DNA of 64,000 bases, taken from Giardia intestinalis (Eukaryota). Both the position numbers and the translations under genes were made by a program. The stretch lies in the NCBI GenBank assembly GCA_000002435.2, contig CM018789.1; one strand, given 5' to 3'. The notes under the pieces were generated by a model. That model saw only the letters and a program-made list of their open reading frames with translations. It searched no databases and had not been told where the DNA came from. Shown piece after piece: positions 29,523 through 58,194 of this stretch. Numbering within the stretch: position 1 is the first letter of the stretch; each line of letters opens with the position of its first letter.

Positions 29523-29537
29523 ATTTACTACCTAAGT
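29523..29537 (-). terminator. VSP-specific extended polyadenylation signal ACTTAGGTAGTAAAT, 4 nt after the VSP stop
   Basis: Reverse complement of atttactacctaagt equals ACTYAGRTAGTRAAY, the conserved 3' element reported for Giardia vsp genes. It follows ...CRGKA-TAG-ATGT. Confidence 0.8.
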
Positions 29538-29541
29538 ACAT

Positions 29542-31197: not shown

Positions 31198-32148
31198 GTC
31201 ACGGAATTCAGTGGAGCACAGCGGCCAACGGAAGCGAGGGCACATCCTCAAGCTACACCGGAGACCCGTTAATGCAGCATCCGTCCTCAGCAAGCATGAC
31301 TGAGGAAGCCCAGCACTGGCTTTCCTTGCTGTGGGAAGGCATAAGTGTATACATAGACAATGAGTGCATCCATTGCTACATTAACCCAACTGGCGCTTGT
31401 GGCCCTTGACACCCATAGCTATCGTATCCTGCACCTGGCAGACTGCCCGAGTGACCATCGTGGGGGACACAGCGATCGTGATGCTCATGGAGTGGTACAG
31501 AGCTGAATATTAGAGATGGTATTGGTACATCCTGGTTCGTCCACTTCAACCAAGCGGTAGGTGATGCTCTGTACTTCCTAGTCGGAAGAGGTAGTCAGTT
31601 CTGACTTGAGACTCTCCAGCCTTTCGCGGTCCAAATTGCCAAGTTGCATCCTCTTTACTCAGACTTGAATAGTCTCTGAAAGAGTGACATTAAAGGTGGT
31701 GCTACCAAGCTCATTATCTATGCTTCATACAAATACCCTAGGGTAAGCATTAGGCTTTTACAGCAGGAGTAAGTGCAACGGTTTTCATCGGTCACGCTCT
31801 CTTCTAATTCTAACTGTGTAAAGATTGGTATTAATTAAAAGAGCTGTTGAGGGAAACTTTATTATCCTAAAGGGATAAGGAACTACACAAAATGAAGCAC
31901 TCTATTAGAGCAGAAATGCTCGACTATAAAAAGAAGTACATCGATAATAGATTGAGGTTCTCACCATTGACATTTTTCCCCTGTGCATAAGCACTCGCTG
32001 TCACAGTAATTGATCTGTAAATTTCTGCTTTATAACACAAAGCAAGGAAGCAGTTTTGTGAACACCTCATCCGATGTCTAGGCTCTTCATGCTAGACACA
32101 TTGATAACGAGATACCGATCGAAAGAGAAACCAATCCACGATGGAGGC
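31198..32148. other. About 950-bp gene-free region upstream of the VSP and downstream of TatD, which is unusually long for this compact genome
   Basis: No ORF of 60 aa or more that is not an artefact, and no RNA gene motifs seen. It contains a 33-aa ATG ORF at about 31893-31994. Confidence 0.4.
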
Positions 32149-42677: not shown

Positions 42678-45600
42678 TTAGTCCTTCTTCCACTTAGAAA
42701 TGTCTGAGACCGTCCCAACGGCACCAATGGCATTGTATGCCTCGCGAGAGTTATCCGCTATGCTATTCGGACTAACAACTGTCGGGCTTGTTATCACTGG
42801 GCTGCGAACAGCACGCTCTAGAGCATCTAGCTTGCGTTTCAGAACATCGTTGTTTATGTTCATCCCATTCACCTTGTCCTTCTCATTGGCCAGGCTAACC
42901 TCCAAGTCTCTGAGCTTGCTGGTAAGATCAACTATCTGAGATTTGCTGAGGCTGTCATCGGGAAGCGACATTGAGCTTGTTCCGTATTTTTCGTTTAGAC
43001 TCTTGAGGTGTTCCGAATAGGAAGCATTGAGATCATCAAGATCAGTTATTGCCTGAGACATTTCAACGACCGCGCGACGCTTCTTGACGTCTGAGTTGAT
43101 CATCTCCGCCATTAAACGCTTGTTATCCTCCTCAAGCTCGCGAACCTTGCGAGACAGATCATCAATAGATGAAACATCGGCGAGGAAGACTGCCGAGTCT
43201 GGATTGGCAATGCCGTTTTCATCGCAAAACTTTCGGAGCTTAGTATGGAGGATGTCACGCTCCTTGATCGCCGTGTTGTACTGAACCTTGAGCTTTTCGC
43301 ATTCGTTTTCTGCATCCTGAAGACGCTTTATTGTTGCCGTGATATCACTTGGAATCCTCGCCAGTTCTTCATTTTTCTTGGAAAGCTCGTCCTTTAAAGC
43401 CGCAAGACTGCTCTCCAATTCGCTTACTTGATCGCGCAACGACTGGACAGCCTTAGCATCGGCGCTACCACCAGCTAGAGATTCCTCAAGAGACTTTCGC
43501 AGATTCTCTACCTCAAGTTCTTTGACCCGGAGCTTCTCAAGGAGAAGCTTATCATGCTGGGATGCGTCGACAGCATCCTCCTTTAGGCGCTGGATCTGGT
43601 CTTCACTATTTGCAAGCGCGGCTTGCATATCCGCGATGATCTTGCGAAGCTTGTTGTTCTCATCTTCCCTGATTCCCTGCTTCTCAAGAGAGTCTTGGAG
43701 CAGCACGCGCAGGCGCTCAATTTCGAGATCCTTATTCTTGAGAAGAGACTTATATTCGTTGGTTTGCTGTCTCACGCTTATGAGGTCCTTCGGAAGTGCG
43801 TCGCGGTTCTTGACAATCTCAGCCAGATCTCTCTGATGAGCCTCAGCCTCATTCAAAAGCCTAGCATATTCTTCCGGACTTTTGGTTGGTTGATCAATCA
43901 GCTTAAGCTCTCTCTGGAGGCGAACGATGTCATCGGTAAGAGAAGCAAGGAGAGCCTCCTTGCGAGCACGCTCCTCCGGTGTCATCTCTGTCTCTGGGTC
44001 AGAAAGCGCAGTCTCAGCCTCTTTATGTTGCTCCCTGAGCTTCGCCAGTAGTCCATACTTTTTATAAAGTTCAACCTCGTCAGGCGAGAGACCGTCAAAG
44101 TGCTTTTTGAGTCTAGAATTCTCATCTTCCAAAGCTCTGTAATGATCCTCACGTGTGCTGTTAGCATCCGTACGAAGGCTTTCGATCATGGCCTCACGCT
44201 CACGGAGTGCTTGGCGCATGGTATCAAGCTCCTCTCGCTTTTCAATCACATCTGCCTTGAGCTGTTCAAGATCCTTGCCCATAGCGGAGATCAGCTCGTC
44301 TTTCTTCTTGGTCTCTGCATTGCCATCATCGAGTTTCTTCTTTAGAGCTGCCACCTCCAGTTCATGCTTCTTCAATAAATCGCCGTGCAGTTCATCCATG
44401 GCATGGGCGCCAGCTTCACTGGTTGAAAGTACAGAGTTAGCTGTCGAGTTGGTGAGCGCATCCCGCAGGCTCTTCTCCACGCCACTCTTTGCGATAGACG
44501 CCTCCCTCAGGTGAGTAAATGAACGTTCTTGGTGCATAATCGCTTCGGCAAGGCGCTCCACCTCTTCTTCACGCAAGTCAAGATCCTCCTTCAGCATTTC
44601 AACCTCCATCTCCAGCTCTGCGATACGAAGAATAAGTTCTGCATTAGATCCTTGGTTGGCGTTGCTGATCTTCTTGAGAACTTCCTCGTCATCTCCAACC
44701 TCTGCTTCAACGGGTCGTTCACTGGCCACAATGTCTCCAGAATCTGCAAAAGCCAACTTATCCTTAAGCTCCTCTATTATATCATCTTTGTCTAAGAGCT
44801 CTTTGTTCAGGTCCTTTATTTCCTGAGTCTTTTCAATGACGTGTGCCTTAAGGACATCAATATCCGAGCGTAATGCATTAATCAAATCATCATTAGCGGG
44901 TGCAGCCTCTGCAAACGTAGCAGGCACAGTACCTTGCGTAGCAAGTTGCTCTTTGGTCTTAAAAAGTTCCTCCTTAAGGTCGTTCAGCTCCTCCTCTGTA
45001 GTTCGAAGCTGCTGCTTGAGAGCTGCTTGATCAGCTGTGGAATCATTGCTGCGCAGCCTCTCTATCTCAGCTTCCTTCTCCTTAATCATATTTTGGAGGA
45101 ACATATTATGTGTATTGAGGGCCTCCTTGTCCTTCTCCAAGGCATGGATCCGGCCAGAACCGTCATCGGGCAAATACTTCACCTCATTCAAAGCATCGTC
45201 CAACTTCTGTTGCAGATCATCCAGTTCTCTGTCCTTGTCGCGAATAATATCCTCAAGCTTTACAATAGTGCTCCTAAGGACATTGATGTCCTGAATCTCT
45301 CCTTCGTACATGGCCACGCTCGTGGTGGAGGCTTCCACTGCATCTCCGGTCTTGTTGAGCCGAAGATTGAGTTGCTGGATGGCATCATCACGGGCCTCAA
45401 CAAGCCTCTCAAGGGCGGAGATTCTCTTTACATAAGTCTCTACCTCCTCACGAAGTCTTCGAGTATCCTCACCGTCTGTAAAAGGCTGAGCATTTTGAGC
45501 TGCCTGAAGTGCACGAGTCAGATCTATGACATCCTTTTCCTTCTGAGCGAGCTTTTCCTCGAGGTCCTGGACTGTTGCCTCAAGTGTTCTAAGTCTGTCG

Positions 45601-47540
45601 TCCTCTTCGTAATCAACGAGACCTCGGAGCTTGTCTGCTTCGTCACGTTTGTTTCTGAGCTCTCTCTTGAGTGCATCCACCTCTGCAAGGAGATCCACTT
45701 CGCGCGTGGAGTCCACCACCTGACCTTGCGCGGACAATAAGCTACGGAGCTCCGATATCTGTTCTTCCCTCGCACGGAGTTCTGCACGAAGGTTCTTTAC
45801 TTGAGCCGAGTCATCATCTCTCACCTCAGCAAGCACCCTATTAAGTTCCTCTAGGAGCCTGTTGTATTCCGTTTCGCTTTCAGCAAGCTTTCTGTCCATA
45901 TTTGCTATCTCAATGCCTCTAGAGATAACCAGGGCTCGAAGCCTATCGAGCTCTTCTCTCAAAGCGTCCTCTGCACTGCCACTCTCGGCAACTTTAGCAA
46001 GCATGCTTCGGAGACTCTCATTTTCAGTTCTAAGAGCATCCGCCTCTGCGGCGTCGCAAGCAGCGTGCAGGGCGTCCTGGAGACGGGCAATCTCTGCCTC
46101 CTGGGCTTTAACAGTCTTCTTGAGTTCGTCAATCTCACGTTCCCTCTCAGCAAGGTCTCTACGTAACTGCTCCTCAACTTCCCTAGATGGCGTCGTGCTG
46201 TTAAGAATCTCTAGCTGCTCTTCACTCTCCTTAAGTCGCTCCTTAGTGCGCGCAAGCTCCTCCTCTAATTCTGCAACACGCCGGCTGTTTTCCTGTTCAG
46301 ATGTATTCAAAAGACTACGGAGTTGGACTATCTCCTCATCGCGCTTAGCATACTCGGCAATCGTTGCCTCCTGCTCTTTAGCGTTTGTCACGAGCTCCCT
46401 AAGGCGCTCATTCTCACTCTCTAGATCCCTAACTCGCGTATCAGCGTCTTTCACCACTTTTTCACGGAGACTGTTGAGTTCGGCCTGTGCGGCAGCCAGA
46501 TCTGCTTCTAACTTCTGAACCGTGGCATCCTTAAGAGTTGCTGAGGATGATAAGCCTGACAGCTCAAGATTATTGCGCATGCTCTCGTTGGTGTTCGCAA
46601 GACGCGAGGTGTCTCGAAGAGCAGACGAAGTCGCCATACTATCCTCTACCGTCGCATGGAGAGAGTCTATCTTCTCCTTGTACTCACTGAGCGTCTGCTT
46701 GAGGCGCTTTATCTGGTCTTGAAGAGCGACATTATCGCTGTAAATAGAGGAGGACTCCTCATGCAACGTGACCAGCTTCTGCTCCAGAGCGAGGATTTTG
46801 GCTTCGAGGTCTTTTTCAAGCTGCGTCTTGGAAGCGTTACTAAACACAGGCCCGCCCGGTGAAGTTGCATTACGAAACATGTCAATGGCTTGCAGGCTAG
46901 AGGCAAGATCGCCACCTATCTGTATACTCCCATTCAGGCTCATATTTGACAGGTTCTGTAGGGACTGAGACGTGATTCCAGGAAGCGTATTAGACTCAAA
47001 TTGCCTAAGATAGTTTGCGACGTCAGCATACCCTGCATTTGCAGCAAGAATTAGCGCTGTTTCGTTATTGTGAGACACTATCTCTCTCTCCCTAATAGCC
47101 AGATACTTCACGACGTCGAGGTGCCCCGCCTCCGCCGCATACATCAAGGCAGTTCGGCCACGATTATCCTGTATGGTCTTCTGATATGGCAAAAGATAGA
47201 TTATAGCGTCCATGCAACTGTGCTTTGCAGCCAGCATCAAGGGGGTTCGCCCCTCTGGATCTCTACTAGCCATCTCGTATGATATCAGACGCTTACAGAT
47301 TTCGCCCTGATTAGAGAGTGCTGCCATCATTATTGCCGTCTGTCCATCGGAGTCCGTCATTGAGTGTTCTGTATAAGCAAGAATCTTGACCATATCGACG
47401 TCGCGGTTAGCCACTGCATGCATTAGCCCTGTGCGCCCATCTTTATCCGTGGACCGACCATATTTCTGCAGATTGCTTTTGACAAGCTCGTGGCTTCTGC
47501 CATCTATGGCTGCAAACCAGTCATCCTTGGACTCAAGCAT
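42678..47540 (-). CDS. Ankyrin-repeat N-terminus plus >1300-aa coiled coil (GASP-180-like / Protein 21.1 family), 1620 aa
   Basis: N-terminal DDWFAAIDGRSHELV and five ANK repeats (GRTGLMHAVANRDVDMVKIL, GQTAIMMAALSNQGEICKRL, ...). The remainder is a continuous coiled coil rich in E, L, K and R. It is the first of three tandem paralogues on the minus strand. Confidence 0.8.
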   Translation of the reverse strand: MLESKDDWFAAIDGRSHELVKSNLQKYGRSTDKDGRTGLMHAVANRDVDMVKILAYTEHSMTDSDGQTAIMMAALSNQGEICKRLISYEMASRDPEGRTPLMLAAKHSCMDAIIYLLPYQKTIQDNRGRTALMYAAEAGHLDVVKYLAIREREIVSHNNETALILAANAGYADVANYLRQFESNTLPGITSQSLQNLSNMSLNGSIQIGGDLASSLQAIDMFRNATSPGGPVFSNASKTQLEKDLEAKILALEQKLVTLHEESSSIYSDNVALQDQIKRLKQTLSEYKEKIDSLHATVEDSMATSSALRDTSRLANTNESMRNNLELSGLSSSATLKDATVQKLEADLAAAQAELNSLREKVVKDADTRVRDLESENERLRELVTNAKEQEATIAEYAKRDEEIVQLRSLLNTSEQENSRRVAELEEELARTKERLKESEEQLEILNSTTPSREVEEQLRRDLAEREREIDELKKTVKAQEAEIARLQDALHAACDAAEADALRTENESLRSMLAKVAESGSAEDALREELDRLRALVISRGIEIANMDRKLAESETEYNRLLEELNRVLAEVRDDDSAQVKNLRAELRAREEQISELRSLLSAQGQVVDSTREVDLLAEVDALKRELRNKRDEADKLRGLVDYEEDDRLRTLEATVQDLEEKLAQKEKDVIDLTRALQAAQNAQPFTDGEDTRRLREEVETYVKRISALERLVEARDDAIQQLNLRLNKTGDAVEASTTSVAMYEGEIQDINVLRSTIVKLEDIIRDKDRELDDLQQKLDDALNEVKYLPDDGSGRIHALEKDKEALNTHNMFLQNMIKEKEAEIERLRSNDSTADQAALKQQLRTTEEELNDLKEELFKTKEQLATQGTVPATFAEAAPANDDLINALRSDIDVLKAHVIEKTQEIKDLNKELLDKDDIIEELKDKLAFADSGDIVASERPVEAEVGDDEEVLKKISNANQGSNAELILRIAELEMEVEMLKEDLDLREEEVERLAEAIMHQERSFTHLREASIAKSGVEKSLRDALTNSTANSVLSTSEAGAHAMDELHGDLLKKHELEVAALKKKLDDGNAETKKKDELISAMGKDLEQLKADVIEKREELDTMRQALREREAMIESLRTDANSTREDHYRALEDENSRLKKHFDGLSPDEVELYKKYGLLAKLREQHKEAETALSDPETEMTPEERARKEALLASLTDDIVRLQRELKLIDQPTKSPEEYARLLNEAEAHQRDLAEIVKNRDALPKDLISVRQQTNEYKSLLKNKDLEIERLRVLLQDSLEKQGIREDENNKLRKIIADMQAALANSEDQIQRLKEDAVDASQHDKLLLEKLRVKELEVENLRKSLEESLAGGSADAKAVQSLRDQVSELESSLAALKDELSKKNEELARIPSDITATIKRLQDAENECEKLKVQYNTAIKERDILHTKLRKFCDENGIANPDSAVFLADVSSIDDLSRKVRELEEDNKRLMAEMINSDVKKRRAVVEMSQAITDLDDLNASYSEHLKSLNEKYGTSSMSLPDDSLSKSQIVDLTSKLRDLEVSLANEKDKVNGMNINNDVLKRKLDALERAVRSPVITSPTVVSPNSIADNSREAYNAIGAVGTVSDISKWKKD

Positions 47541-47715: not shown

Positions 47716-50700
47716 TTAATGAATAACGGTTTGTAAGAATTGAGCACCAAACACCATACTTGCACCAACACACATTCCAGCAACAAAATTGATGCATCGG
47801 TCTGCTCTTTCCATGACGTCATCGGACTCGTTGACGCTTCGTGGTTTCTCCACATGATCAGAATACTCACTAGCAATCTTATCTGGGATTCTCTGAGATA
47901 ATTTGAGTGTCTCTGCCTGCTGGCGCTCAATCGCAAGCTCCTTAACTTTATCCTCTATCTGCCTTTTGAGGTCCTCCTTCACAGCATTGAGCTGGGAGTT
48001 CTCGGTTCTCAGCCCCTCCAGCTCCCTTGTTAGAGACGTGATAAGTTCTTCAGACTGAGCGCCCGCGGCAATCTGTTTGTTAAGTTGTTGATTTTCAGCT
48101 CGTAACTTCTCAATAACTTCACCGGTAGCTGAGAGCCTGTCCTGAAGAGAGGAAAGCTCCGCCTCCAACGGAGAAATTTGTGCGCCCAAGTTCTCTATAC
48201 GCTGCAGAGCGTCGGTTAGCTCACGTTCCTTCGCGTCTGCACGTTCATTGGCGTCCTTGAGCGCCTGCTCTAAATCAGAGATTCTAACATCGTCTGTGCC
48301 AGTTGCCAAAGAGGGCTCCTCCAAAACAGGAGCAGCAGGCAGAGGTAAATTCTTGGCAGAGCTGGTCTTCATGGCGTTAATTTGATCGTTGAGGATATTC
48401 TTTTCAGTCATTAGCGCCGTAATCTTATTGTTGAGCTTCTTAATGCGTCTTCTTTCAGAATCAAGCAACTCTCGAAGCTCATCCAATGACAGCTCACCTA
48501 GATTCTGGGTACTCCTAGAAGTAGACCTAGCTAGGCTTGGTATCGATGAGAGATCAGGATTAGAAGAGGCACTCTCAATCGTTTTCTCTTCCAGTTCAGC
48601 TTTCAATAAATCTATCTTTGAATTAGCCTCTTCTAATTCTAGGCACTTAGAGCTCAATTGATCCTTAAGGGTTGAAAGTTCATCATTCAACCTCGAAATA
48701 TCTGCGTCAGATGTTGATACTTGTGCATTGATAGCGTCCAGTGACTGCTCCAGATCAATAATAGTTTTGTTGAGTTTAGAAACCTCGTCACGTAGGCTAT
48801 CTCTTTCGGCTGTAACATGAGCCAAATCCTTTCGCAATTCCTCAGTGTCAACATCAGATTTCTTGTCTACTGTACTATCATCAATAAGACGACGTAACTC
48901 ATCAATCTCAGCAGTGCGCGCTTCTAACTCTGCAGTAAGGTCTTGAACTTGTGAGTCAGGGACCTCCTCCTCCAGTGCGCGAATGCGGGCCCTCGCCCCG
49001 GCGCACTCCTGCTCCAGGTCCTGGACGTCCTGGTCGCGCGCCGCAAGCCTGTCGCGGAGCTTGGCTATCTCCTTTTCGTGGCGGGCCGCCTCTTCCTTCA
49101 TGCGCTCCAGCAGGAACGACGAGTCGCCCAGCTCGCCCACGGTCCTCTGGAGGTCTGCGATCTCCTGGGTCTTGAATGCAGCCTCCTTCTGGAGAGCAGA
49201 GAGGCGCTCTTCGAGGGCGTAGACGCGCGCGTCGTCTCCGCTCGGGGCGCCCGACACAGATGCGCGCAAGTCGTCGTTGGCACTAGTCAGGCCGTCGATC
49301 TCTCTTTGGAGGGCGTGGATCTCGTGCGCCTGGAGGCGGTTGACGTTGTGGAGGTTCTTGACCTCGGCCTCGAAGAGGGCGACCTCCTCCTCGTGCTCTG
49401 CGCGATCAACAGTTGTCTCCGCAAGTAGCTTGATATCTCTTTCAAGATCTGCAACACGTTTGCAAAGTAGCTGACGCTCGTTTTCTAGAATGGTTCCGTC
49501 ACTAGGCAAAATAGTTGCGTTGCCTGATGGTTCTAGTGTAATCAGAGGAATCACATTATCTTCAGCGGCTTGATCACGTAGTTGTTGCAGTTCTAGTTCC
49601 CTAAGTTGAAGATTATCTTCTAACTCGGTAATACGTTTTAAGGAATCATCATTCGGATCCATAGGCTGACGAGCCTTGATATCCTCAATTTGTAATTCTA
49701 AATCTTTCAAATCTCTCCTTTTGTCCTTAATTTCATCATCCAATACCTGGATCAGTGCGCGGCGATTCTCCAAAGTTTCTTCTAAGTCCTGGGCTGATGG
49801 CAGTATCGAGCTCTCAATGTGGGCCTTCAATTCGGAAATTTCACCTCTAAGAAGAGCAATATCCTCATCTTTTCTTTGAAGAGTAAGCTGCATAGCAGTT
49901 AATTTTTCATTCAAAGAAGGACTATTGTTAGACAGTAAATCATCTAATTGATGTTGTAATGATGCTACCTCATCGCTCTTCAGCTTTAGCTGAGCCGAAT
50001 AATACTCATTAGACTGTATAAGCATTTGAATATCAGTCTCAGAATCCGCTGGTTGTTTGGTCGACGGTGAGAAATCACCTGCAGTGAACGAGTTCAATTG
50101 ACGTTCATATAGATCACATTTATTCTGTGATTCTTCTAAGGCTTCTGCAACACATGCTAATTCAAATTGGAGCTTGGCAATGTGATCCTCTAAAGAAGTA
50201 ATGAAATTGGATTGCTCAGCGGACAAAGAATCACGAGGTTCTTTTTCTTCAGAGAGAGATTTATCGTTAGAAATGTTGCTATTTAATTTGTCCTGCAGAT
50301 GTGCAACAGCGTCTTCCAGAGTCCGAATGCGAAGTTTCGCCTCAATGTTTTCTTGTTCCAACTCTTGGAAGTCTTGACTATGAGTAGTATCACGAGTAGA
50401 CCCGTCCTGTACGCTCTCCTGCAATTCCAGCAACCTATGATTAGCTTCATCAAGTTGTGCTCTAGTTTCTTTCAGTTTTTCCTCCAAAATCGCTATAGGA
50501 TAATCATCTTCTTTAGTGTCAAGTAAATCACGTAAACGATCAGCTTCCTCGCGTAGTCTTTCATTTTGGTCTTTTAGCGCATCTAGATCCCCCGTTTGTT
50601 TAAGTGAATTTATAGTAAGCAAGGCATTATCGAGAGTATACTCTAATTCAGCCTTCTCTGTTTTGAGACATTCAAGTTGATTCTTCAATTCTAAAAATTC

Positions 50701-53214
50701 AACCTCAGAAACATTGACAGCCAAAGGCTTATCTCGTGATTGACTAGTTGTCATAAGGTGAGATGCATCAGAATCTGTAGTATCAGATACTGCTTCTAGC
50801 GCGCGAATGCGGGCCCTCGCCCCGGCGCACTCCTGCTCCAGGTCCTGGACGTCCTGGTCGCGCGCCGCAAGCCTGTCGCGGAGCTTGGCTATCTCCTTTT
50901 CGTGGCGGGCCGCCTCTTCCTTCATGCGCTCCAGCAGGAACGACGAGTCGCCCAGCTCGCCCACGGTCCTCTGGAGGTCTGCGATCTCCTGGGTCTTGAA
51001 TGCAGCCTCCTTCTGGAGAGCAGAGAGGCGCTCTTCGAGGGCGTAGACGCGCGCGTCGTCTCCGCTCGGGGCGCCCGACACAGATGCGCGCAAGTCGTCG
51101 TTGGCACTAGTCAGGCCGTCGATCTCTCTTTGGAGGGCGTGGATCTCGTGCGCCTGGAGGCGGTTGACGTTGTGGAGGTTCTTGACCTCGGCCTCGAAGA
51201 GGGCGACCTCCTCCTCGTGCTCTGCGCGATCGGCAGCAGCAGCCAGAGACACTTCTCTGAGTTCTTTGAGCTCTTGCTCATATGCATTCTTAACATCATC
51301 AAGGTGTGATACACATCTATGAAGCTCTGCATTATCCGCTTCAAGGCATGAAATACGGTCATGCACCAGTTCAACTTGTGTAGTGAGTTCATTCTTTAGT
51401 GCATCTACCTCAGCCGTACGCGCTACAAGCTGGCTAAGCAACTCTTCGTTTCGGCTTTCAAGGGCTGCAATCCTGCCTTCATCACCAGCAGGCTCCCCAT
51501 TGACAGACTTTTGCAGGTCTTCATTTAGGGCCCTGCACTCATCAAGCTCCTCGGCAAGCTCCCGCAATTTGGACTTCTGGTCGTGAATTTGGTGGCGTAG
51601 TTCCTTAACTTCCTGTTCTTGAGCTTCTGCTTCTGCTTCAAGGATCTGGACGCGATTGCGAAGCATTTCGTTCTCCTCCTGGAGATTGTCTCTCTCAGCA
51701 GACAGGGCAGTAAGTAGTCCAGCAAGATTCTCTCTTTCTTCTGTCCACATGAACTTATCTGCATCATTAGACTGACTCTGCAATTTGCTTTCAAGGTCGT
51801 GAATGCGAACATTTGGGTCTGTCGGGCTTTGAGAGTGAGCCTCTTTAGTCATGCTATGCTCATCTGCTCCTGTTTCTATCTTATCTGATGGCGAAAATTG
51901 ATTATCAGCTGAACAAATCCGACCGCGCAACTCTTCAATGGTGGCGTTAAGCGTCTTGTAAGCATCAATCTGCTCAGAAAGCTGCTTCTTCAGATCATCA
52001 ATGATCCTATCCTTTTCCTCTACTTCCCTGGCAAGTCTCTCGGAAAGCTCAGATGAATCGTGAGCTGGAAGCGCAGCAATTTTCATTTTTAGTGCGGCAA
52101 TCTCATCATTCTTCTCCAAAGATTCTGTGGGTGCGCCAGGGGGATCGGGAGCAATCGATAGCTCTAGGGCGCCGTATCTCTGGCCAAAATCGGCTTGAGA
52201 CTCAGAAAGCATATTATTCGACTGCAAGTCGCGCAACGTCTGCGTCATGTCAGTCAACTCTTTTACCTGCTCCGCCGTATCTTGGTGGCATCTTCGCTCA
52301 TCATCGAGCTCCAATTTGAGCTCCTGATTGTGACGGAGAAGCTCCTGGATACGCTCATGAAGACGCTTGTTTTCCACTTGCAAATTAGCATTACGACTCA
52401 TAAGTTCGGATGCATCCTCATGAAGCTTTCCTATTCGTGTCTTCAGTTCCAAATTCATTGTGTTAAGTTCAGAAAGTGCAATGGCCTTTGTTGTCTCCAG
52501 GCGTTCAGAGAGGTCAGCCTGGCTCATAATCAAGTCAGAAGTGCTTGAATCCTGAGACGCAGTAGAGTGGTTGAGAAGATTCGACGGTACCAGTGAGGCA
52601 TCTAGATCTGTGCGGCGAGACATACTAAGGCGTGCGCTTTCAGATAGCATCGCCATTGTGTCCTCTTCTGATGATCGTAGAAACTCCACCACATCATGAT
52701 GGTGATGCATGATTGCAATAGAAAGGGCAGTCTCATGCTCCGAAGAGGAAAACTTACACTCGCGAGCGTGCAAGATTTCCACGATAGAAAGATCTCCGCG
52801 TGCGGCCGCATACATAAGAGCTGTGCGTCCACGACTATCTACTTTGGTGACGTAGTAAGGCATAAGGGCTTTTGCTGCATCCAGAGAGCCATTCTGTGCA
52901 GCAAGCATAAGAGGGGTGCGCCCATCTGGAAGGATCAGATGCGACTCCTTAGCTACCAGCGCACGGCAGCACCTGGCCTTATTAACGATCGCAGCGATCA
53001 TAAGAGCGGTAAGCCCATCAGAATTCGTAAACCCACTACCATTATGAAGCAGAACCTTTACAGCATCGTAATTGTCGCTACGAACAGCGCGCATAAGGGC
53101 AGTCTCTCCATTCTCATCACGCAGAGACGCACACTCGCTCGCCGCCGCACGAATAGTCGCTATGTCGCCCTGGTCGACCGCAGCAAACCATGTTCCCACG
53201 CTAGGCGGAGCCAT
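47716..53214 (-). CDS. Ankyrin-repeat plus long coiled-coil protein (GASP-180-like), about 1833 aa. Start moved from the track's TTG at 53253 to the ATG at 53214
   Basis: N-terminal MAPPSVGTWFAAVDQGD, ANK repeats (GETALMRAVRSDNYDAVKVL, ...), then coiled coil. Contains the internal perfect repeat described separately. Confidence 0.8.
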   Translation of the reverse strand: MAPPSVGTWFAAVDQGDIATIRAAASECASLRDENGETALMRAVRSDNYDAVKVLLHNGSGFTNSDGLTALMIAAIVNKARCCRALVAKESHLILPDGRTPLMLAAQNGSLDAAKALMPYYVTKVDSRGRTALMYAAARGDLSIVEILHARECKFSSSEHETALSIAIMHHHHDVVEFLRSSEEDTMAMLSESARLSMSRRTDLDASLVPSNLLNHSTASQDSSTSDLIMSQADLSERLETTKAIALSELNTMNLELKTRIGKLHEDASELMSRNANLQVENKRLHERIQELLRHNQELKLELDDERRCHQDTAEQVKELTDMTQTLRDLQSNNMLSESQADFGQRYGALELSIAPDPPGAPTESLEKNDEIAALKMKIAALPAHDSSELSERLAREVEEKDRIIDDLKKQLSEQIDAYKTLNATIEELRGRICSADNQFSPSDKIETGADEHSMTKEAHSQSPTDPNVRIHDLESKLQSQSNDADKFMWTEERENLAGLLTALSAERDNLQEENEMLRNRVQILEAEAEAQEQEVKELRHQIHDQKSKLRELAEELDECRALNEDLQKSVNGEPAGDEGRIAALESRNEELLSQLVARTAEVDALKNELTTQVELVHDRISCLEADNAELHRCVSHLDDVKNAYEQELKELREVSLAAAADRAEHEEEVALFEAEVKNLHNVNRLQAHEIHALQREIDGLTSANDDLRASVSGAPSGDDARVYALEERLSALQKEAAFKTQEIADLQRTVGELGDSSFLLERMKEEAARHEKEIAKLRDRLAARDQDVQDLEQECAGARARIRALEAVSDTTDSDASHLMTTSQSRDKPLAVNVSEVEFLELKNQLECLKTEKAELEYTLDNALLTINSLKQTGDLDALKDQNERLREEADRLRDLLDTKEDDYPIAILEEKLKETRAQLDEANHRLLELQESVQDGSTRDTTHSQDFQELEQENIEAKLRIRTLEDAVAHLQDKLNSNISNDKSLSEEKEPRDSLSAEQSNFITSLEDHIAKLQFELACVAEALEESQNKCDLYERQLNSFTAGDFSPSTKQPADSETDIQMLIQSNEYYSAQLKLKSDEVASLQHQLDDLLSNNSPSLNEKLTAMQLTLQRKDEDIALLRGEISELKAHIESSILPSAQDLEETLENRRALIQVLDDEIKDKRRDLKDLELQIEDIKARQPMDPNDDSLKRITELEDNLQLRELELQQLRDQAAEDNVIPLITLEPSGNATILPSDGTILENERQLLCKRVADLERDIKLLAETTVDRAEHEEEVALFEAEVKNLHNVNRLQAHEIHALQREIDGLTSANDDLRASVSGAPSGDDARVYALEERLSALQKEAAFKTQEIADLQRTVGELGDSSFLLERMKEEAARHEKEIAKLRDRLAARDQDVQDLEQECAGARARIRALEEEVPDSQVQDLTAELEARTAEIDELRRLIDDSTVDKKSDVDTEELRKDLAHVTAERDSLRDEVSKLNKTIIDLEQSLDAINAQVSTSDADISRLNDELSTLKDQLSSKCLELEEANSKIDLLKAELEEKTIESASSNPDLSSIPSLARSTSRSTQNLGELSLDELRELLDSERRRIKKLNNKITALMTEKNILNDQINAMKTSSAKNLPLPAAPVLEEPSLATGTDDVRISDLEQALKDANERADAKERELTDALQRIENLGAQISPLEAELSSLQDRLSATGEVIEKLRAENQQLNKQIAAGAQSEELITSLTRELEGLRTENSQLNAVKEDLKRQIEDKVKELAIERQQAETLKLSQRIPDKIASEYSDHVEKPRSVNESDDVMERADRCINFVAGMCVGASMVFGAQFLQTVIH
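48977..49407. repeat. Copy A of a perfect ~431-bp intragenic direct repeat, GC-rich
   Basis: Identical sequence from gcgcgaatgcgggccctcgcc... to ...ctcgtgctctgcgcgatc at 48977-49407 and 50801-51231 (offset 1824 bp). Track ORFs 48983-49222 and 50807-51046 translate identically, as do 49098-49283(-) and 50922-51107(-). Confidence 0.85.
50801..51231. repeat. Copy B of the perfect ~431-bp intragenic direct repeat
   Basis: See copy A. In the host protein it duplicates about 143 aa in frame (DRAEHEEEVALFEAEVKNLHNVNRLQ...ECAGARARIRALE). Confidence 0.85.
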
Positions 53215-53310: not shown

Positions 53311-56300
53311 CTACTGGAGGTCCAGGGCCGAGAGGTTGTCGTCGAGGACGACGATGCCGGCGCGGATGTCGTCCACAAGCTTCTTGTAGTACTCGACGGC
53401 CTTCCGGAGGTTGCCCGTCTCGCTGATGGCCTTGCCGCACTCGTCCGTCTTCTGCGCAAGGTCCTCGTTGGCCTTGTCGAGCGACTCCTGCAGCGAGGCG
53501 ATCTCTGCCTCGAGCGCCATGGTGCGCTCGTCGTTTGCGGAGTGGAGGTTGGCGTCGCGGGCCTCCTCCAGCTCCCTGTTCAGGGCCTCGATCTGGGCGC
53601 TGACCTCCGCATTCTTGCCCTCCTGGTCGTCGAGAAGGCCCTGGAGCTCCGTGATGGTGTTCTCGCGGTCGTCGAGCTCCTCCTGGAGCTTCCTGAGCTC
53701 CTCCTGCAGGCTCTCGACGACGGCCGGGTCGATGTCGTTCGCCGTGTTCTTGAGCACCTCGACCTCCTCCTGGAGATCCGCGATCTGCTTCCTGCTCTCG
53801 TCCAGGGAGCACTGGAGAGCGGTGATCTTGTCGTTGTTGGCGCTGTCCAGCTTGATCATCTCGTCCTTGAGGTCGCTGCACTGCTGCTTGAGGCCGTCGA
53901 TCTCGTCCTGGAGCTCGTCGATGAGGGACCGCTTGGCCTCGAGTTCGTCCTTCAGCGCTGCGTTCTCGTCCTGGACCTCCCGGAGGGCCGCAGCATCCCC
54001 GACCTCCTCGCCGGACTCCGGATAGACGGTGGTCGCGGTGGGCTGGGCCTCCAGCTGTTCGCGCAGCTCGGCGATCTCGGCGTCCTTGTCCTTGAGCCCG
54101 TCGTTGAGGACCGCGATCTCGTCATCGAGCTCTGCGATCCTCTCCTTGAGGTCGTCGTACTCCTCGGTGTCGCGGAGCCTCTGCTTGAGCTCGTCGATGG
54201 TGGCGTCCCGCTCCGCCACAAGCTCCTTGGCTCCGCTGAGGTCCTTCTCGAGCTGCTCGACGAGCTTCTGGAGGTCGCCGTCTGCTGCCCTGGAGTCGCT
54301 GAGAGCGTGGAGCTTGTCCTGGAGGGCCTCGGCGCTCTCCCTGAGCTCGCGCACGGTGGCCTCGCTGGCCTCGAGCTTGTTTGCGAGCTCGGGGTCCGCA
54401 GTCGCAAGCTCGGCCCGGAGCCCCTCCGTCTCCATCTCCTTGGCCTCGAGCGCGGCGCGCAGCTCTGCAAGCTCCTTGCGCGCGTCCTGGAGCTGGTCCT
54501 CGAGCATCCGGACGCGCTCGGTGTCCTCGGGCACCTGGGCGGTCTCGAGCTGGACCCGGAGTCCGCCCAGCTCCTCGCGGAGGCGCGCGGCCTCGGCGTC
54601 GCTGTCGACGAGGTTCTTGTGGACGGCGTCGATCTCGGCGAGCTTGGCGCTGAGCTGCCCGCGGAGCTCTGCCACCTCGTTCTCGAGGGAGGCAACCCGA
54701 GCCTTCGCAAGCTCCGCGCCGTCGTCATCGGTGACGGCTCTGAGGCCTGTCGTCGCGCCCGCGAGCTCGGCGTCCTTGCTGGCGAGCTGGGCGAGGAGGC
54801 TGTCGACCATCTCCTTGCTCTCGCCGAGTTTGGTCTTGTAGCCCTCGACCTCGGCGAGGAGCTCGCTAAGCCGCTCGGTGTTCTCGACGCTGGCGCGGAC
54901 AATGGCAAGCTCCTTCTCGAGTTGCTCGATGGTCTCGTCCTTGCCTCTCGCCGCGTCGGTCAGCTCGTCGACGCGGCTGCGAAGGTCGGCAACCTCCTGG
55001 CGCAGGGCCGCGACCTCGCCCTGGTCCTGTGGGGCGCCGAGGTCCTTGCGCAGGCTCTCCACCAGGTCTGTCAGGTCCCGGACCTGCTTCATGAGCCGCT
55101 CCTTGTCGCCCTCCAGGGAGTCGCTCCTCAGCTTGCCGTTGCGCAGGTCCTCCTTGAGCGCATCCATCTCCGCCATGATCCGCGCGTGCTCACCCTTGTA
55201 GTGGTCGTTCTCGCCGGTGAGGGCGTTGACGAGGGCCTGCAGCTCGTCGACCTTCTGGACCAGGCCGTCGTCGAAGTCGAGGATGCTCGAGACCTTGGCC
55301 TGCTCCTCGGGGTCGACGTCGCTGATCTCCGTCTGGGCGTCGACGTACTCCGCACCGGACTGGTCGGACGGCGCCACGCTGAGCGGCTTCTCGCGGAGCT
55401 CGCAGAGGGCGTCGTTGAGCTGCCTCACCTCGTCCTCGAGGCGGCGGAGGCTGTGCTCCTTGTCGGCGACCTCCTTGCCCTTGTCTGCAGCGAGCTGCTC
55501 GAGCTCGGCGAGTCGCGCGGTCTTCTCTTCAAGTCCTCGGATTGCGTCGTCGCGCGCGGCAACGGTGCCCCGGAGGTCCGCGATCTCATCCTCGAGGATC
55601 TTGATGCGCGCGTCGTCTTGGGGCACGGTGCTGTCAAGCTGGGCCTTGAGGTCCGCGATGAGGCTCTCCTTCGCGTCCAGGGCGCCGTTGAGCCTGTTGA
55701 GCTCGTCCTTCTGCTCGCGGTTCTGGCCGTGCATGACCTCGAGCTCCTCGTTGAGGACCTGGACCTCCTCCCTGAGCGCGTCGAGTTCCTCCTTGAGCCT
55801 GTCGAGGTCCTCGGAGGATGCGCCGGGCTCCTCGGTGTAGACCGTCGAACCCACTGGTTTCTGCTCGAGCTCCCTCCGCATGTCCTCCATCTCGGCCACC
55901 GCGCAGTCGTACCTGTCCTTGAGCGAGAGGAGCTGCTCCTGCGCGTCCTCCAGCTGCTCCTGGAGCTCGACAAGTTTCTCCACGTCGCTTGCGTCTCCGC
56001 TCGCCCGGGCGTTGGCGAGCGCCTCCTTGAGGTCAGAGACCTCCTTGTTGAGGTGGGCGACCTGGCCGCGGAGTCCGCTGGCCTCGTCTGCACCGCTCTT
56101 CCTGAGGGCCTCAAGCGCGTCATTGAGGGCCTGGAGCTCGTCTTTGAGTCGGCCGTTCTCCTCCTCCAACGCGGTGAGCTGCGCCGGGTCGGCCTCGACC
56201 GGCTGGGCGGGCGCGCCGTCGACGAGCTCCTTGAGCTCTGCGATCTGGTTATCGCGCGCCTCGATCTCATCGGTCAGCGCCCTGATCTTCTCCTCGAGGG

Positions 56301-58194
56301 CGCGGATGGCCGTCTCGTCTGCGGGGGCGTCGCGCGACCTACCGCTGAGCTCCTTGACCTGCTGCTGGAGCTCCTCGATGCGTGCAAGGTACTCTGCAGC
56401 GTCTGCTCCCCGCGTGGCGTCTGCCTCCAGGGCGTCCACCCTTTCCTGGAGAGCCGCGCTGTTCTTCATCTCCTCCTGGATGCGGTCGCGGAGGAGCTCG
56501 ATCTCGTCGTCGCGCTCGTCGATGTCCTGCTTCGCGTTGGCGAGCTCGAACTGGAGGTCTGCGATCTGCTCGTTGAGCTCCTTGACCCTCTCGTCGTCGC
56601 CGCCCTGCGCGTCGGCGAGGAGCCTCTCCAGCCCTGCGATCTGCGCCTCGAGCTGGGCCACGCGTTTATCGCCCTCGGCAGACGACCTCTGGGCGCTCTC
56701 TGCGCGCATGACGAGGTCCTGGAGGCGGGCGATCTCCGAGTTCTTGGCGGCGATGATGGCGTCGAAGTCCGCCGCCTCGCCTCCCCTGGCCAGGGTCTCC
56801 TCGAGGCGGCTCTGGAGGGCCTCGAGCTCCCCGTCCTTGGCGAGGAGGGCCTGGCGGAGGCTCTCGACCTCCTCCTCGAGAATCTGCGTGGCGTACGCCT
56901 CGTCCTGGCTGGCGGCTGCCTGTTCCAGCTCGGCAATGCGTGCGTCGCGCTCATCGAGCATGGACCGGAGGCCTGCGAGTTCGTCCTCGAAGGCCCTGGT
57001 CTTCTCGACGATGGGCCGGAGCCCCGAGAGGTCGGACTCGCGCGCCTCCAGCTCCTCCCGGAGGGCGCTGATCTTGTTTTCGTAGTCTGCGAGGAGGGCC
57101 GCGTCTCCCGTGGGCGACGGGACGGCGGTCAGGCGCTCGTTGAGGGCGCGGATGTCCCTCTCCTTCTCCGCGAGCTCGGACTGGAGCGCCCTGATCTTGT
57201 CCTTGAGGCCGTCGACGTCCTCACCAGACCCGCCGGCGCTGAGCATTCCCTCCATGTCGGAGAGACGCTCCTTGAGGTCGCTGATGATGGCGTCCTTGTC
57301 GGCCGTCTCGGACTGGAGCCTGCTGATTTCGATGCGCAGCGTGGTGATGTTCTCCTCCATGTTCTTGACCTGGCCGTGCAGGGAGACGTTTTGGCCGATG
57401 ACGATCGACGACTCGTCGTGCAGCGAGGCCAGCTTCAGCTCGAGTTGCATGATCTTGGACTCGAGCTCGTGCTCGAGCTGCGTCTTGGTCTGCGTGAGGG
57501 AGTCAGCCTGTCCGCCGGGGAAGCGGTGCGCGTCGATCAGAGAGAATGACAGGGAGAGGTCGAGGGCGGGGTTTCCGACCTGGGACGAGGAGAAGTTCAT
57601 GAGCGAGGGGCGGGTGAACTCCGGAATCAGGTTCGCCTCATAGGACGCGAGGCACTGGACGATGTCGGTGTGCCCGTTCTCGGCCGCGAGCACGAACGCC
57701 GTCTTGTGGTCGTACGAGACGATCTCCTTCTCGCGGACCACGAGGAGCTTCACCACGTCCGTGTGGCCGGCCGCCGCCGCGTACATCAGGGCGGTGCGCC
57801 CGCGCGCGTCTGTCTTGGCCTTGAGGTAGGGGAGCAGGTTGCTGACCGCCGCGGTCGACCCGTGCTCGGCGGCGAGCATGAGGGGCGTCATCTGGAAGTC
57901 GCCGTAGGTGGTGTTGACCTCATAGGCGACGAGGCGCTTGCAGACGTCGCCCTTGTTGGCCTCGGCGGCGATCATGATGGCGGTCTTCCCCTCGCCGTTG
58001 ACCATGCCGTTCTCGAAGAAGCCGAGGATCTTGACAAGCTCCACGTTCCCTTCGCGCGCGGCGATCATCAGGCCCGTCTCGCCGTCACCGTTGACGGACT
58101 TGGCGTACTCTGCTGCGTGGTTGCGGATCAGCTCGACCTGGCCGGCCTGGATGGCCTCAAACCATTCCTCCACAGAAGACACCACTGCAGGCAT
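53311..58194 (-). CDS. Ankyrin-repeat plus long coiled-coil protein (GASP-180-like), 1627 aa, strongly GC-rich
   Basis: N-terminal MPAVVSSVEEWFEAIQAGQVELI with ANK repeats (GETGLMIAAREGNVELVKIL, GKTAIMIAAEANKGDVCKRL, ...), followed by a coiled coil dominated by GAG/CTC/GCC codons. The plus strand is stop-free for about 4 kb, which is a composition artefact. Confidence 0.8.
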   Translation of the reverse strand: MPAVVSSVEEWFEAIQAGQVELIRNHAAEYAKSVNGDGETGLMIAAREGNVELVKILGFFENGMVNGEGKTAIMIAAEANKGDVCKRLVAYEVNTTYGDFQMTPLMLAAEHGSTAAVSNLLPYLKAKTDARGRTALMYAAAAGHTDVVKLLVVREKEIVSYDHKTAFVLAAENGHTDIVQCLASYEANLIPEFTRPSLMNFSSSQVGNPALDLSLSFSLIDAHRFPGGQADSLTQTKTQLEHELESKIMQLELKLASLHDESSIVIGQNVSLHGQVKNMEENITTLRIEISRLQSETADKDAIISDLKERLSDMEGMLSAGGSGEDVDGLKDKIRALQSELAEKERDIRALNERLTAVPSPTGDAALLADYENKISALREELEARESDLSGLRPIVEKTRAFEDELAGLRSMLDERDARIAELEQAAASQDEAYATQILEEEVESLRQALLAKDGELEALQSRLEETLARGGEAADFDAIIAAKNSEIARLQDLVMRAESAQRSSAEGDKRVAQLEAQIAGLERLLADAQGGDDERVKELNEQIADLQFELANAKQDIDERDDEIELLRDRIQEEMKNSAALQERVDALEADATRGADAAEYLARIEELQQQVKELSGRSRDAPADETAIRALEEKIRALTDEIEARDNQIAELKELVDGAPAQPVEADPAQLTALEEENGRLKDELQALNDALEALRKSGADEASGLRGQVAHLNKEVSDLKEALANARASGDASDVEKLVELQEQLEDAQEQLLSLKDRYDCAVAEMEDMRRELEQKPVGSTVYTEEPGASSEDLDRLKEELDALREEVQVLNEELEVMHGQNREQKDELNRLNGALDAKESLIADLKAQLDSTVPQDDARIKILEDEIADLRGTVAARDDAIRGLEEKTARLAELEQLAADKGKEVADKEHSLRRLEDEVRQLNDALCELREKPLSVAPSDQSGAEYVDAQTEISDVDPEEQAKVSSILDFDDGLVQKVDELQALVNALTGENDHYKGEHARIMAEMDALKEDLRNGKLRSDSLEGDKERLMKQVRDLTDLVESLRKDLGAPQDQGEVAALRQEVADLRSRVDELTDAARGKDETIEQLEKELAIVRASVENTERLSELLAEVEGYKTKLGESKEMVDSLLAQLASKDAELAGATTGLRAVTDDDGAELAKARVASLENEVAELRGQLSAKLAEIDAVHKNLVDSDAEAARLREELGGLRVQLETAQVPEDTERVRMLEDQLQDARKELAELRAALEAKEMETEGLRAELATADPELANKLEASEATVRELRESAEALQDKLHALSDSRAADGDLQKLVEQLEKDLSGAKELVAERDATIDELKQRLRDTEEYDDLKERIAELDDEIAVLNDGLKDKDAEIAELREQLEAQPTATTVYPESGEEVGDAAALREVQDENAALKDELEAKRSLIDELQDEIDGLKQQCSDLKDEMIKLDSANNDKITALQCSLDESRKQIADLQEEVEVLKNTANDIDPAVVESLQEELRKLQEELDDRENTITELQGLLDDQEGKNAEVSAQIEALNRELEEARDANLHSANDERTMALEAEIASLQESLDKANEDLAQKTDECGKAISETGNLRKAVEYYKKLVDDIRAGIVVLDDNLSALDLQ

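What the first reader, a model, noticed from the sequence alone, without database searches (positions are those of the whole stretch)
48977..51231. Perfect ~431-bp GC-rich direct repeat 1824 bp apart, in frame inside one ankyrin/coiled-coil gene
Two identical segments duplicate about 143 aa of coiled coil in frame. The repeat is markedly more GC-rich than the surrounding gene and resembles the codon style of the GC-rich paralogue next door (53311-58194). That suggests recent duplication or gene conversion from a GC-rich paralogue, or an assembly collapse or expansion. Perfect identity over this length implies a very recent event or ongoing homogenisation.
Basis: seen in the sequence. Interest (0 to 1): 0.55.

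Follow-up and report, generated by a model that had tools for sequence, protein, structure and literature searches.

The report
Gene-conversion-homogenised GC-rich repeat, Giardia gene
Two copies of an old 144-residue module inside one Giardia cytoskeleton-type gene stay letter-for-letter identical within each strain while differing between strains, which is ordinary concerted evolution by gene conversion, here with a sharp GC-rich footprint.

Summary
Window bases 48977-49407 and 50801-51231 are identical over 431 bp, 1824 bp (608 codons) apart, in frame on the minus strand. The gene is 47716-53214, and its 1832-aa product is identical to Giardia intestinalis WB 'Ankyrin repeat protein 3' (GL50803_32999).

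It is neither a recent duplication nor an assembly artefact. The same layout (5' part, copy, about 1.39-kb AT-rich spacer, copy, 3' part) occurs in independent assemblies of assemblages A1, A2, E (P15) and B. Contig breaks imply it in a fifth lineage.

The two copies are identical within each genome. Between genomes they differ by 6 (A1 vs A2-like), 50 (A vs E) and about 74 (A vs B) of 431 bases, always at the same sites in both copies. That is concerted evolution by intragenic gene conversion. Tract edges are conserved to within 13 nt.

The GC island (GC3 0.79-0.87 against 0.31-0.46) coincides with the tract in all lineages. It is absent from the diverged, unhomogenised units of the G. muris orthologue, which suggests GC-biased conversion. 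However, recent substitutions run GC to AT.

The repeat shares no sequence homology with the GC-rich neighbouring gene. This is a known kind of process and a tidy new example.

The parts
47716..53214 (-). Host gene. 1832 aa plus stop, product identical to G. intestinalis WB 'Ankyrin repeat protein 3' (XP_001704158.2 / KAE8301313.1, GL50803_32999). N-terminal ankyrin repeats, long coiled coil, C-terminal hydrophobic tail.
   Evidence: ORF list. Pfam Ank_2 E = 5.5e-30. Exact identity to P0122.
50801..51231 (-). Repeat copy 1 in gene order (gene nt 1984-2414, residues 662-805). 431 bp, GC 66.6%, GC3 0.86.
48977..49407 (-). Repeat copy 2 in gene order (gene nt 3808-4238, residues 1270-1413). Identical to copy 1.
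49408..50800 (-). Unique AT-rich spacer between the copies (1393 bp, about 464 codons, GC 39.7%, GC3 0.31). Orthologous in P15 (16.8% diverged; differences at codon positions 1/2/3 are 0.147/0.069/0.287, so it is coding and constrained) and in assemblage B (P0136, L010).
51406..51594 (-). Older, diverged third copy of the module core (residues about 541-603). 36.5% identical to repeat residues 28-83 and carries the N-E-D-L...G-E-P-x-G-D-E motif. Not homogenised and not GC-rich.
   Evidence: tblastn E = 4e-7. Sliding GC3.
52645..53184 (-). Ankyrin-repeat region of the protein (about residues 11-190).
   Evidence: Pfam Ank_2, Ank, Ank_4 and Ank_5 stretches.
47719..47796 (-). C-terminal hydrophobic tail (...CINFVAGMCVGASMVFGAQFLQTVIH), conserved in P15, assemblage B and G. 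muris orthologues. A possible tail anchor (inference).
   Evidence: Sequences.

Best explanation
The two 431-bp segments are two old copies of a roughly 130-144-residue module of a modular ankyrin/coiled-coil protein, Giardia 'Ankyrin repeat protein 3'. The duplication predates the split of Giardia intestinalis assemblages A, E and B. It may predate the split from G. muris, whose orthologue has diverged modules at colinear positions.

The copies are kept identical by repeated non-reciprocal homologous recombination, that is, intragenic (ectopic) gene conversion between the copies, on the same chromatid, between sisters, or between the four genome copies. A new mutation in one copy is either erased or pasted into the other.

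Conversion tracts cannot run beyond the homology, so identity stops abruptly at the same edges in every lineage. The flanks and the 1.39-kb spacer evolve independently.

Shown here: shared architecture, within-genome identity, between-genome divergence at the same sites in both copies, homogenised synonymous sites, and conserved edges.

Inferred: the recombination mechanism itself. Also inferred is that the GC3 island confined to the tract is a by-product of GC-biased repair of conversion heteroduplexes (gBGC). That bias would have acted mainly before the assemblages split and is now weak or relaxed. I put about 0.5 on this sub-claim and about 0.9 on gene conversion as such.
For: 1. Exact repeats occur in three genomes for which DNA was read: WB window 431 bp, an A2-like ENA metagenome contig 431 bp, and P15 439 bp plus one mismatch at the 5' edge.

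2. The distance matrix of copies groups by genome, not by position. WB copy 1 vs copy 2 = 0 differences, ENA = 0, P15 = 1. WB vs ENA = 6 in both copies at the same six sites. WB vs P15 = 50/51. WB vs assemblage B = 73-77.

3. At protein level there are four different haplotypes, each identical in both copies: WB ...MKEEAA..., DH-type P0121 ...MREEAA..., ENA ...MREEVA..., and P15 with 12 replacements.

4. Third-position divergence in the repeat is 0.23 (A-E) and 0.29 (A-B), yet 0 between copies. Purifying selection therefore cannot explain the identity.

5. The spacer and flanks are orthologous across lineages: A-E 13-17% diverged, A-B 23-27%.

6. Assemblage B scaffold L010 shows 5' part, copy 1 (interrupted by a 100-N gap), spacer, copy 2, 3' part. 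The visible 54 + 55 nt of copy 1 are identical to copy 2.

7. Contigs from BAH15c1 (NCBI), SRR3177862 and a roughly 70%-identical fifth lineage (ERR3333381) all begin 6-18 nt before the 3' end of the region aligned to the 431-bp repeat. A WB-type contig ends exactly 30 nt (k-1) into the repeat after the spacer. These are the expected signatures of a true repeat.

8. GC3 of the tract is 0.86 (WB), 0.85 (ENA), 0.79 (P15) and 0.87 (B), against 0.31-0.46 in flanks and spacer.

9. The G. muris orthologue has three modules that are only 27-36% identical to each other, with no DNA repeat and no GC3 elevation (0.61-0.65 vs 0.66).

10. Literature: genes in Giardia gene-conversion events are GC-enriched (PMC12669663). 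gBGC has been invoked for Giardia's GC-rich rDNA (PMC10123126).
Against: No conversion event or partial tract was observed directly; the process is inferred from its outcome.

In the short-read and 454 assemblies (ENA, P15, DH) a repeat node is used twice. A few real copy-specific differences could therefore have been erased. Only the WB chromosome-scale assembly gives independent per-copy sequence, and I could not inspect reads.

Against the gBGC sub-claim: polarised substitutions (assemblage B as outgroup) in the tract run GC to AT, 32:4 on the P15 branch (p = 2e-6) and 7:3 on the A branch. Flanks are roughly balanced on the P15 branch (89:87) and run AT to GC on the A branch (75:118). So homogenisation continues while GC erodes.

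Causality could also run the other way: GC-rich DNA may simply convert more readily.
Confidence: 0.85

Rival explanations
1. Very recent segmental duplication: the copies are identical because they are young.
For: Perfect identity over 431 bp with abrupt ends in the window.
Against: The same two-copy architecture, with the same edges (within 13 nt) and an orthologous, 17-27% diverged spacer, exists in A1, A2, E and B. The copies carry lineage-specific substitutions in parallel. A young duplication would need to recur independently with identical endpoints in every lineage.
Confidence: 0.02
2. Assembly artefact in the window: a single module was wrongly expanded, or the identity was created by polishing.
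For: The 2007 WB gene model was a 461-aa fragment starting inside copy 2, so the locus was hard to assemble. Logan k-mer contigs give single-copy 1224/1225-aa versions. Franzen et al. 2013 listed the gene among RNA-seq 'intron' candidates that PCR rejected.
Against: The spacer is real coding DNA, conserved in A, E and B, and is bounded by the repeat on both sides in independent assemblies made by different assemblers and from different data: the WB chromosome-scale record, the NCBI P15 and DH-type records, an ENA SPAdes-named contig and an assemblage B metagenome scaffold. A WB-type short-read contig carries the spacer-to-repeat junction. An uninterrupted 1832-codon ORF is preserved in A and E.
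Confidence: 0.03
3. The GC-rich module was imported by gene conversion from a GC-rich paralogue, the neighbour 53311-58194 or another family member. Its composition would then be inherited rather than produced in place.
For: Third-position composition matches the neighbour's. The neighbour is an ankyrin/coiled-coil protein of the same general build.
Against: There is no nucleotide similarity to the neighbour or to anything else in the window. Protein similarity is 25-29%, typical of unrelated coiled coils. phmmer over 1.84 billion representatives finds the module only in orthologues. The module sits at positions colinear with G. muris modules and is 34-37% identical to them, so it is native to this gene.
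Confidence: 0.05
4. The single-copy 1224/1225-aa forms are real deletion alleles made by crossover or single-strand annealing between the direct repeats. The locus would then be polymorphic for one or two modules.
For: Three Logan contigs from three lineages (A1 SRR26410986, A2-like P0133, B-like DRR668197) read straight through 5' part, repeat, 3' part. Direct repeats 1.8 kb apart are a classical deletion substrate, and the deletion is in frame.
Against: Single-copy forms come only from Logan k-mer contigs. Every other assembly of the same lineages has two copies. The A1 contig is 100% identical to WB, which has two copies. A sibling run (SRR26410991) holds the spacer-to-repeat junction. Other Logan contigs break at the repeat edge.
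Confidence: 0.15

Closest known systems
Concerted evolution of dispersed or duplicated segments by ectopic gene conversion (classical cases from my own knowledge: primate gamma-globin HBG1/HBG2, Drosophila and mammalian Hsp70 pairs, human Y-chromosome palindrome arms)
   Same: Paralogous copies are near-identical within a genome but diverged between lineages. Synonymous sites are homogenised. Tract boundaries are sharp where homology ends.
   Different: Here both copies lie inside one open reading frame, separated by 1.39 kb of unique coding sequence. The organism is a tetraploid, binucleate diplomonad whose sexual status is debated.
GC-biased gene conversion in converting gene families (from my own knowledge: Galtier 2003 on mammalian histones, Kudla et al. 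2004 on Hsp70; Escobar et al. 2011 on rDNA is cited in PMC10123126)
   Same: GC3 is strongly raised exactly over the converted tract and not in the flanks. There is no elevation in a relative whose copies do not convert (G. muris).
   Different: Recent substitutions in the tract are biased GC to AT (32:4 in P15). Any GC drive is therefore ancestral or weak now. No transmission bias was measured.
Gene conversion reported between Giardia sub-assemblages AI and AII (Nat Commun 2025, PMC12669663)
   Same: Non-reciprocal conversion is operating in Giardia, and the converted genes are GC-enriched (median 0.541 vs 0.488).
   Different: That work concerns allelic or inter-lineage tracts of about 3 kb detected statistically. 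This is intragenomic, intragenic conversion between two paralogous 431-bp modules.
Giardia ankyrin/coiled-coil proteins (Protein 21.1-like; 'Ankyrin repeat protein 1/2/3'; axoneme-associated GASP-180-type proteins)
   Same: N-terminal ankyrin repeats followed by more than 1000 residues of coiled coil. Tandem neighbours of similar build lie at 42678-47540 and 53311-58194.
   Different: The repeated module with the N[DE]DL..S..G.P.GDD.RV motif and the C-terminal hydrophobic tail are found only in this orthologue group. Function was not tested.

Membership tests
Concerted evolution by gene conversion | Paralogous copies are more similar within a genome than orthologous copies are between genomes | tested here: met
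   0-1 differences within a genome, against 6, 50 and 73-100 between genomes.
Concerted evolution by gene conversion | The duplication predates the lineage split (shared architecture, orthologous flanks and spacer) | tested here: met
   The same layout and edges occur in A1, A2, E and B. The spacer is orthologous and 17-27% diverged.
Concerted evolution by gene conversion | Identity extends to synonymous sites, so it is not explained by protein-level selection | tested here: met
   Third-position divergence is 0 between copies, against 0.23-0.41 between lineages.
Concerted evolution by gene conversion | Direct observation of conversion events or partial tracts (mosaic copies) | tested here: inconclusive
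   There are only edge effects. The identity edge lies 8-13 nt further 3' in P15 and B than in A, and 3 nt further in at the 5' end of P15. No internal mosaic was seen, and no read-level data were available.
GC-biased gene conversion (gBGC) footprint | GC is raised mainly at silent sites, confined to the converting tract | tested here: met
   GC3 is 0.79-0.87 in the tract against 0.31-0.46 outside; GC2 is unchanged (0.39). p = 9e-27.
GC-biased gene conversion (gBGC) footprint | Excess of AT-to-GC over GC-to-AT substitutions in the tract | tested here: not met
   GC-to-AT: AT-to-GC is 32:4 on the P15 branch and 7:3 on the A branch. The island is old and eroding, at least in E.
GC-biased gene conversion (gBGC) footprint | No GC excess in homologous segments that do not convert | tested here: met
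   G. muris modules have GC3 0.61-0.65, against 0.66 for the rest of the gene. The diverged unit at 51406-51594 is not GC-rich.
GC-biased gene conversion (gBGC) footprint | Biased transmission of G/C alleles from heteroduplex repair | not testable with these tools
   This needs population polymorphism or experimental marker data.
Ankyrin-repeat protein (Pfam Ank clan) | Significant matches to ankyrin repeat models above the gathering score | tested here: met
   Ank_2 104 bits (cut-off 27.3); Ank 71 bits.
Assembly-collapsed or expanded repeat | The structure is unsupported by independent assemblies or junction sequences | tested here: not met
   Four independent two-copy assemblies plus junction contigs.

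The most novel reading that the evidence does not exclude
The locus is a natural, single-transcript demonstration that recombination, not expression-linked codon selection, can set GC3 in Giardia. Within one mRNA, GC3 jumps from 0.31 to 0.86 exactly over an ectopic-conversion tract. If this holds generally, the wide GC3 spread of Giardia genes (for example the GC3 0.92 neighbour), currently attributed to selection for G/C-ending 'optimal' codons, would be largely a gBGC map of conversion activity. The locus would also serve as a built-in reporter for measuring mitotic or ectopic conversion rate and bias in a putatively asexual tetraploid.
Probability: 0.25. Interest if true: 0.6.

Novelty: new member of a known kind. 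Interest (0 to 1): 0.4.

Why it matters
How Giardia keeps its four genome copies nearly identical, and whether it recombines at all, is a long-running question. This locus shows homologous recombination (conversion) acting often enough to erase every difference between two 431-bp paralogous segments, across a divergence of 12-23% between assemblages.

It also offers a clean within-gene contrast for testing GC-biased conversion against codon selection, because expression level, strand and chromatin neighbourhood are the same.

Practically, it explains three things. [quoted passage not shown] Public k-mer assemblies carry 1224/1225-aa versions lacking 608 residues. The gene produced a false 'intron' signal in RNA-seq.

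Tried and rejected
1. A homologue search with the 464-aa spacer alone returned nothing at E <= 1e-10. The tool appears to return only proteins of roughly 0.55-1.45 times the query length (my inference from the length ranges of hits), so this was uninformative and cost one capped search.

2. Exact look-ups of the window's own target protein and of the GC-rich neighbour in the contig index found nothing. Yet the identical WB protein P0122 is in the cluster table. Absence from that index is therefore not evidence.

3. I considered the neighbour at 58299-63179 as a paralogue. It has no ankyrin hits, only a faint CPSF_A match. The tandem ankyrin/coiled-coil set is therefore three genes (42678-47540, 47716-53214, 53311-58194).

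4. I considered purifying selection as the cause of identity. It is rejected because synonymous sites are identical too.

5. I considered that assemblage B has a single copy (from P0004/L004). This was overturned by P0136 and scaffold L010 and by contig breaks at the repeat edge.

6. Orthology of copy 1 to G. muris unit 1 and copy 2 to unit 3 is suggested by colinear alignments. It cannot be proved, because homogenisation erases the signal, and the spacer does not align to G. muris.
Full report
**The observation**

A comparison of the window with itself at offset 1824 gives one uninterrupted run of 431 identical bases, 48977-49407 = 50801-51231. Similarity drops to random levels immediately outside both ends. 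It is the only repeat with a seed of 20 nt or more in the 64-kb window. The chance expectation is about 10^-250.

Both copies lie in frame (1824 = 608 codons) in the minus-strand ORF 47716-53214. They cover gene nt 1984-2414 and 3808-4238, residues 662-805 and 1270-1413.

- The repeat is 66.6% GC. The rest of the gene is 45.1% and the intervening 1393 bp are 39.7%.
- At third codon positions the contrast is 0.86 against 0.31-0.46. GC2 is unchanged. Fisher p = 9e-27.

**What the gene is**

- The 1832-aa product has N-terminal ankyrin repeats (Pfam Ank_2, 104 bits), a very long coiled coil and a short hydrophobic C-terminus.
- It is residue-for-residue identical to P0122. That is XP_001704158.2 / KAE8301313.1, 'Ankyrin repeat protein 3', GL50803_32999, of Giardia intestinalis WB clone C6, carried on a 1.49-Mb record.
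The repeat evidently broke the first assembly.
- The same gene was among 14 RNA-seq 'cis-intron' candidates; PCR validated only one, in a different gene (GL50803_86945) (Franzen et al. 2013, PMC3610916).
- It appears as a hypothetical protein in a table of the mitosome proteomics study, under the heading 'Identification of putative mitosomal proteins' (PMC3044749).

**Architecture in other lineages**

Homologue searches and contig look-ups gave the locus from several independent sources:

- L001: P15, assemblage E, NCBI (GLP15_1881, 1832 aa).
- L002: an A2-like contig from an ENA metagenome assembly with SPAdes-style contig naming (1832 aa).
- P0121: a DH-type protein (1845 aa as annotated).
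- L010: an assemblage B metagenome scaffold.
- L005-L007: three contigs that start at the downstream edge of the repeat.
- L009: a WB-type short-read contig.

P15 and the ENA contig have the same layout as the window, with exact repeats of 439 bp (offset 1821) and 431 bp.

In assemblage B the scaffold reads 5' part, first 54 nt of copy 1, 100 N, last 55 nt of copy 1, spacer, complete copy 2, 3' part. The visible ends of copy 1 are identical to copy 2, and the flanks are unrelated. Protein P0136 shows the B spacer joined to copy 2.

Contig ends give further support:

- Contigs from BAH15c1 (NCBI JXTI01000187), SRR3177862 and a more distant lineage (ERR3333381, about 70% identical) all begin 6-18 nt before the 3' end of the region aligned to the 431-bp repeat.
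- The WB-type contig L009 ends exactly 30 nt (k-1) into the repeat after the spacer.
- These are the breaks expected at a true repeat.

The spacer is orthologous and evolving as coding sequence. WB-P15 differences at codon positions 1/2/3 are 0.147/0.069/0.287.

The duplication is therefore at least as old as the common ancestor of assemblages A, E and B.

**Concerted evolution**

Differences between 431-nt copies:

| Comparison | Differences |
|---|---|
| WB copy 1 vs copy 2 | 0 |
| ENA copy 1 vs copy 2 | 0 |
| P15 copy 1 vs copy 2 | 1 (first codon) |
| WB vs ENA | 6, at the same six sites in both copies |
| WB vs P15 | 50-51 |
| WB vs assemblage B | 73-74 (ENA vs B: 76-77) |
| P15 vs assemblage B | 96-100 |

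- At protein level there are four distinct haplotypes (WB, DH-type, ENA, P15), each present identically in both copies.
- Third-position divergence between lineages is 0.23-0.41 in the repeat, yet zero between copies. Selection on the protein cannot be the cause.
- Copies group by genome and not by position. This is the defining signature of concerted evolution by gene conversion.
- The edges of identity are conserved. The start is at the same codon in A and B, and 3 nt later in P15. The end is 8-13 nt further 3' in P15 and B than in A, where three substitutions in copy 1's flank have trimmed the tract.
- Caveat: in short-read and 454 assemblies a repeat is represented once and used twice. Exact identity in P15, ENA and DH is therefore not independent evidence. 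Parallel divergence on the scale seen is.

**Relation to G. muris and to other genes**

- The G. muris orthologue (P0005, 'Ankyrin repeat protein 3', 1521 aa) has three modules, at residues 665-793, 857-981 and 999-1129. They are 34-37% identical to the repeat.
- Window residues 9-792 align colinearly with G. muris 9-793, and 1273-1831 with 1002-1520. Copy 1 and copy 2 therefore sit where G. muris units 1 and 3 sit.
- The G. muris units are only 27-36% identical to one another and show no DNA-level repeat beyond a 33-nt motif.
- They have the same GC3 (0.61-0.65) as the rest of that gene (0.66).
- The window gene also has an older diverged unit at 51406-51594, 36.5% identical (E = 4e-7), which is not GC-rich.
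- The repeat has no nucleotide match to the GC-rich neighbour 53311-58194 or to anything else in the window. Protein similarity is only 25-29%.
- A phmmer scan of 1.84 billion representative proteins finds the module only in orthologues: P15, the A single-copy form, assemblage B and G. muris.
- The resemblance to the neighbour is purely compositional (third positions C 0.49/G 0.37 against C 0.52/G 0.40). Import from a GC-rich paralogue is not supported.

**The GC island**

- GC3 over the tract is 0.86 (WB), 0.85 (ENA), 0.79 (P15) and 0.87 (B). Flanks and spacer are 0.31-0.46 in every lineage, with steps that coincide with the repeat edges.
- Because the whole gene is one transcript, expression-linked codon selection cannot explain a local island. 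That selection is the usual explanation for Giardia's G/C-ending 'optimal' codons (PMC8393687).
- A process tied to being repeated is needed. GC-biased repair of conversion heteroduplexes is the known candidate.
- The lack of an island in the non-converging G. muris units fits this. So does the reported GC enrichment of genes involved in Giardia gene-conversion events (PMC12669663).
- Against a currently active bias, substitutions polarised with assemblage B run GC to AT. The counts are 32:4 on the P15 branch (binomial p = 2e-6; vs flanks 89:87, Fisher p = 1e-5) and 7:3 on the A branch.
- The island is therefore ancestral and is eroding in E while homogenisation continues.
- I rate gBGC as the origin of the island at about 0.5. 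The alternative is that high GC merely favours conversion.

**Single-copy versions**

- Proteins of 1224/1225 aa (P0003, P0133, P0004) equal the full protein minus exactly 608 residues.
- They come only from Logan k-mer contigs of A1, A2-like and B-like samples.
- The A1 contig is 100% identical to WB elsewhere. A sibling run contains the spacer-to-repeat junction.
- I read these as assembly collapse.
- A real in-frame deletion allele, produced by crossover or single-strand annealing between the direct repeats, is mechanistically plausible. It is not excluded (about 0.15).

**Verdict**

The feature is real and exactly as described. It is not a recent duplication, not an artefact of this assembly, and not derived from the neighbouring gene. 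It is an ancient intragenic duplication of a protein module, homogenised by ongoing gene conversion, with a GC3 footprint restricted to the tract.

The process is textbook. The example is unusually clean and, as far as the searched literature shows, not described for this gene. Interest is moderate (0.4). Novelty: new member of a known kind.

Noticed in passing
window 53311-58194 (-): A whole 1627-aa ankyrin/coiled-coil gene is 66.5% GC with GC3 0.917, sitting between genes of GC3 about 0.47. The P15 orthologue (L001 977-5902) has GC3 0.946 and is 93.3% identical in DNA to WB, against 83-88% for the different parts of the repeat-bearing gene. Its synonymous sites therefore evolve unusually slowly. 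Cause not examined: strong codon selection, or conversion with copies elsewhere.
   Followed up: partly
window 53411-57643 (+), e.g. 53542-57549: Long antisense ORFs (up to 1335 aa) overlap the GC-rich gene. They are almost certainly stop-codon-free artefacts of its G/C-ending codons rather than genes.
   Followed up: no
window 28460-31293: ORF 29542-31293 (-) ends in ...CRGKA, the tail typical of Giardia variant-specific surface proteins. Beside it lies a 63-69% GC block (28501-29750) that includes a 236-aa ORF (28460-29170) of unknown status.
   Followed up: no
P0003, P0133, P0004 (loci L003, L004): Public protein collections contain 1224/1225-aa versions of this protein lacking exactly one module plus the spacer (608 residues). 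All are from k-mer (Logan) contigs. They are likely collapse artefacts that could mislead orthologue length comparisons.
   Followed up: partly
L010 2177-2276: The assemblage B metagenome scaffold has a 100-N gap inside copy 1 of the repeat. As a result the gene was called only from an internal Met in the spacer (P0136, 1010 aa).
   Followed up: yes
L007 (Logan ERR3333381): A Giardia lineage about 70% identical in DNA to A, B and E at this locus, of unidentified assemblage. It has the same gene order, and its contig also starts at the repeat's downstream edge.
   Followed up: partly
window 47719-47796 (-): A conserved hydrophobic C-terminal tail is present in orthologues as far as G. muris. 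Together with the protein's listing in the mitosome proteomics table (PMC3044749), this hints at a tail-anchored membrane association.
   Followed up: no
window 58299-63179 (-): This 1626-aa ORF is of similar length to the ankyrin genes but has no ankyrin hits, only a faint CPSF_A match. It is not a fourth paralogue.
   Followed up: partly
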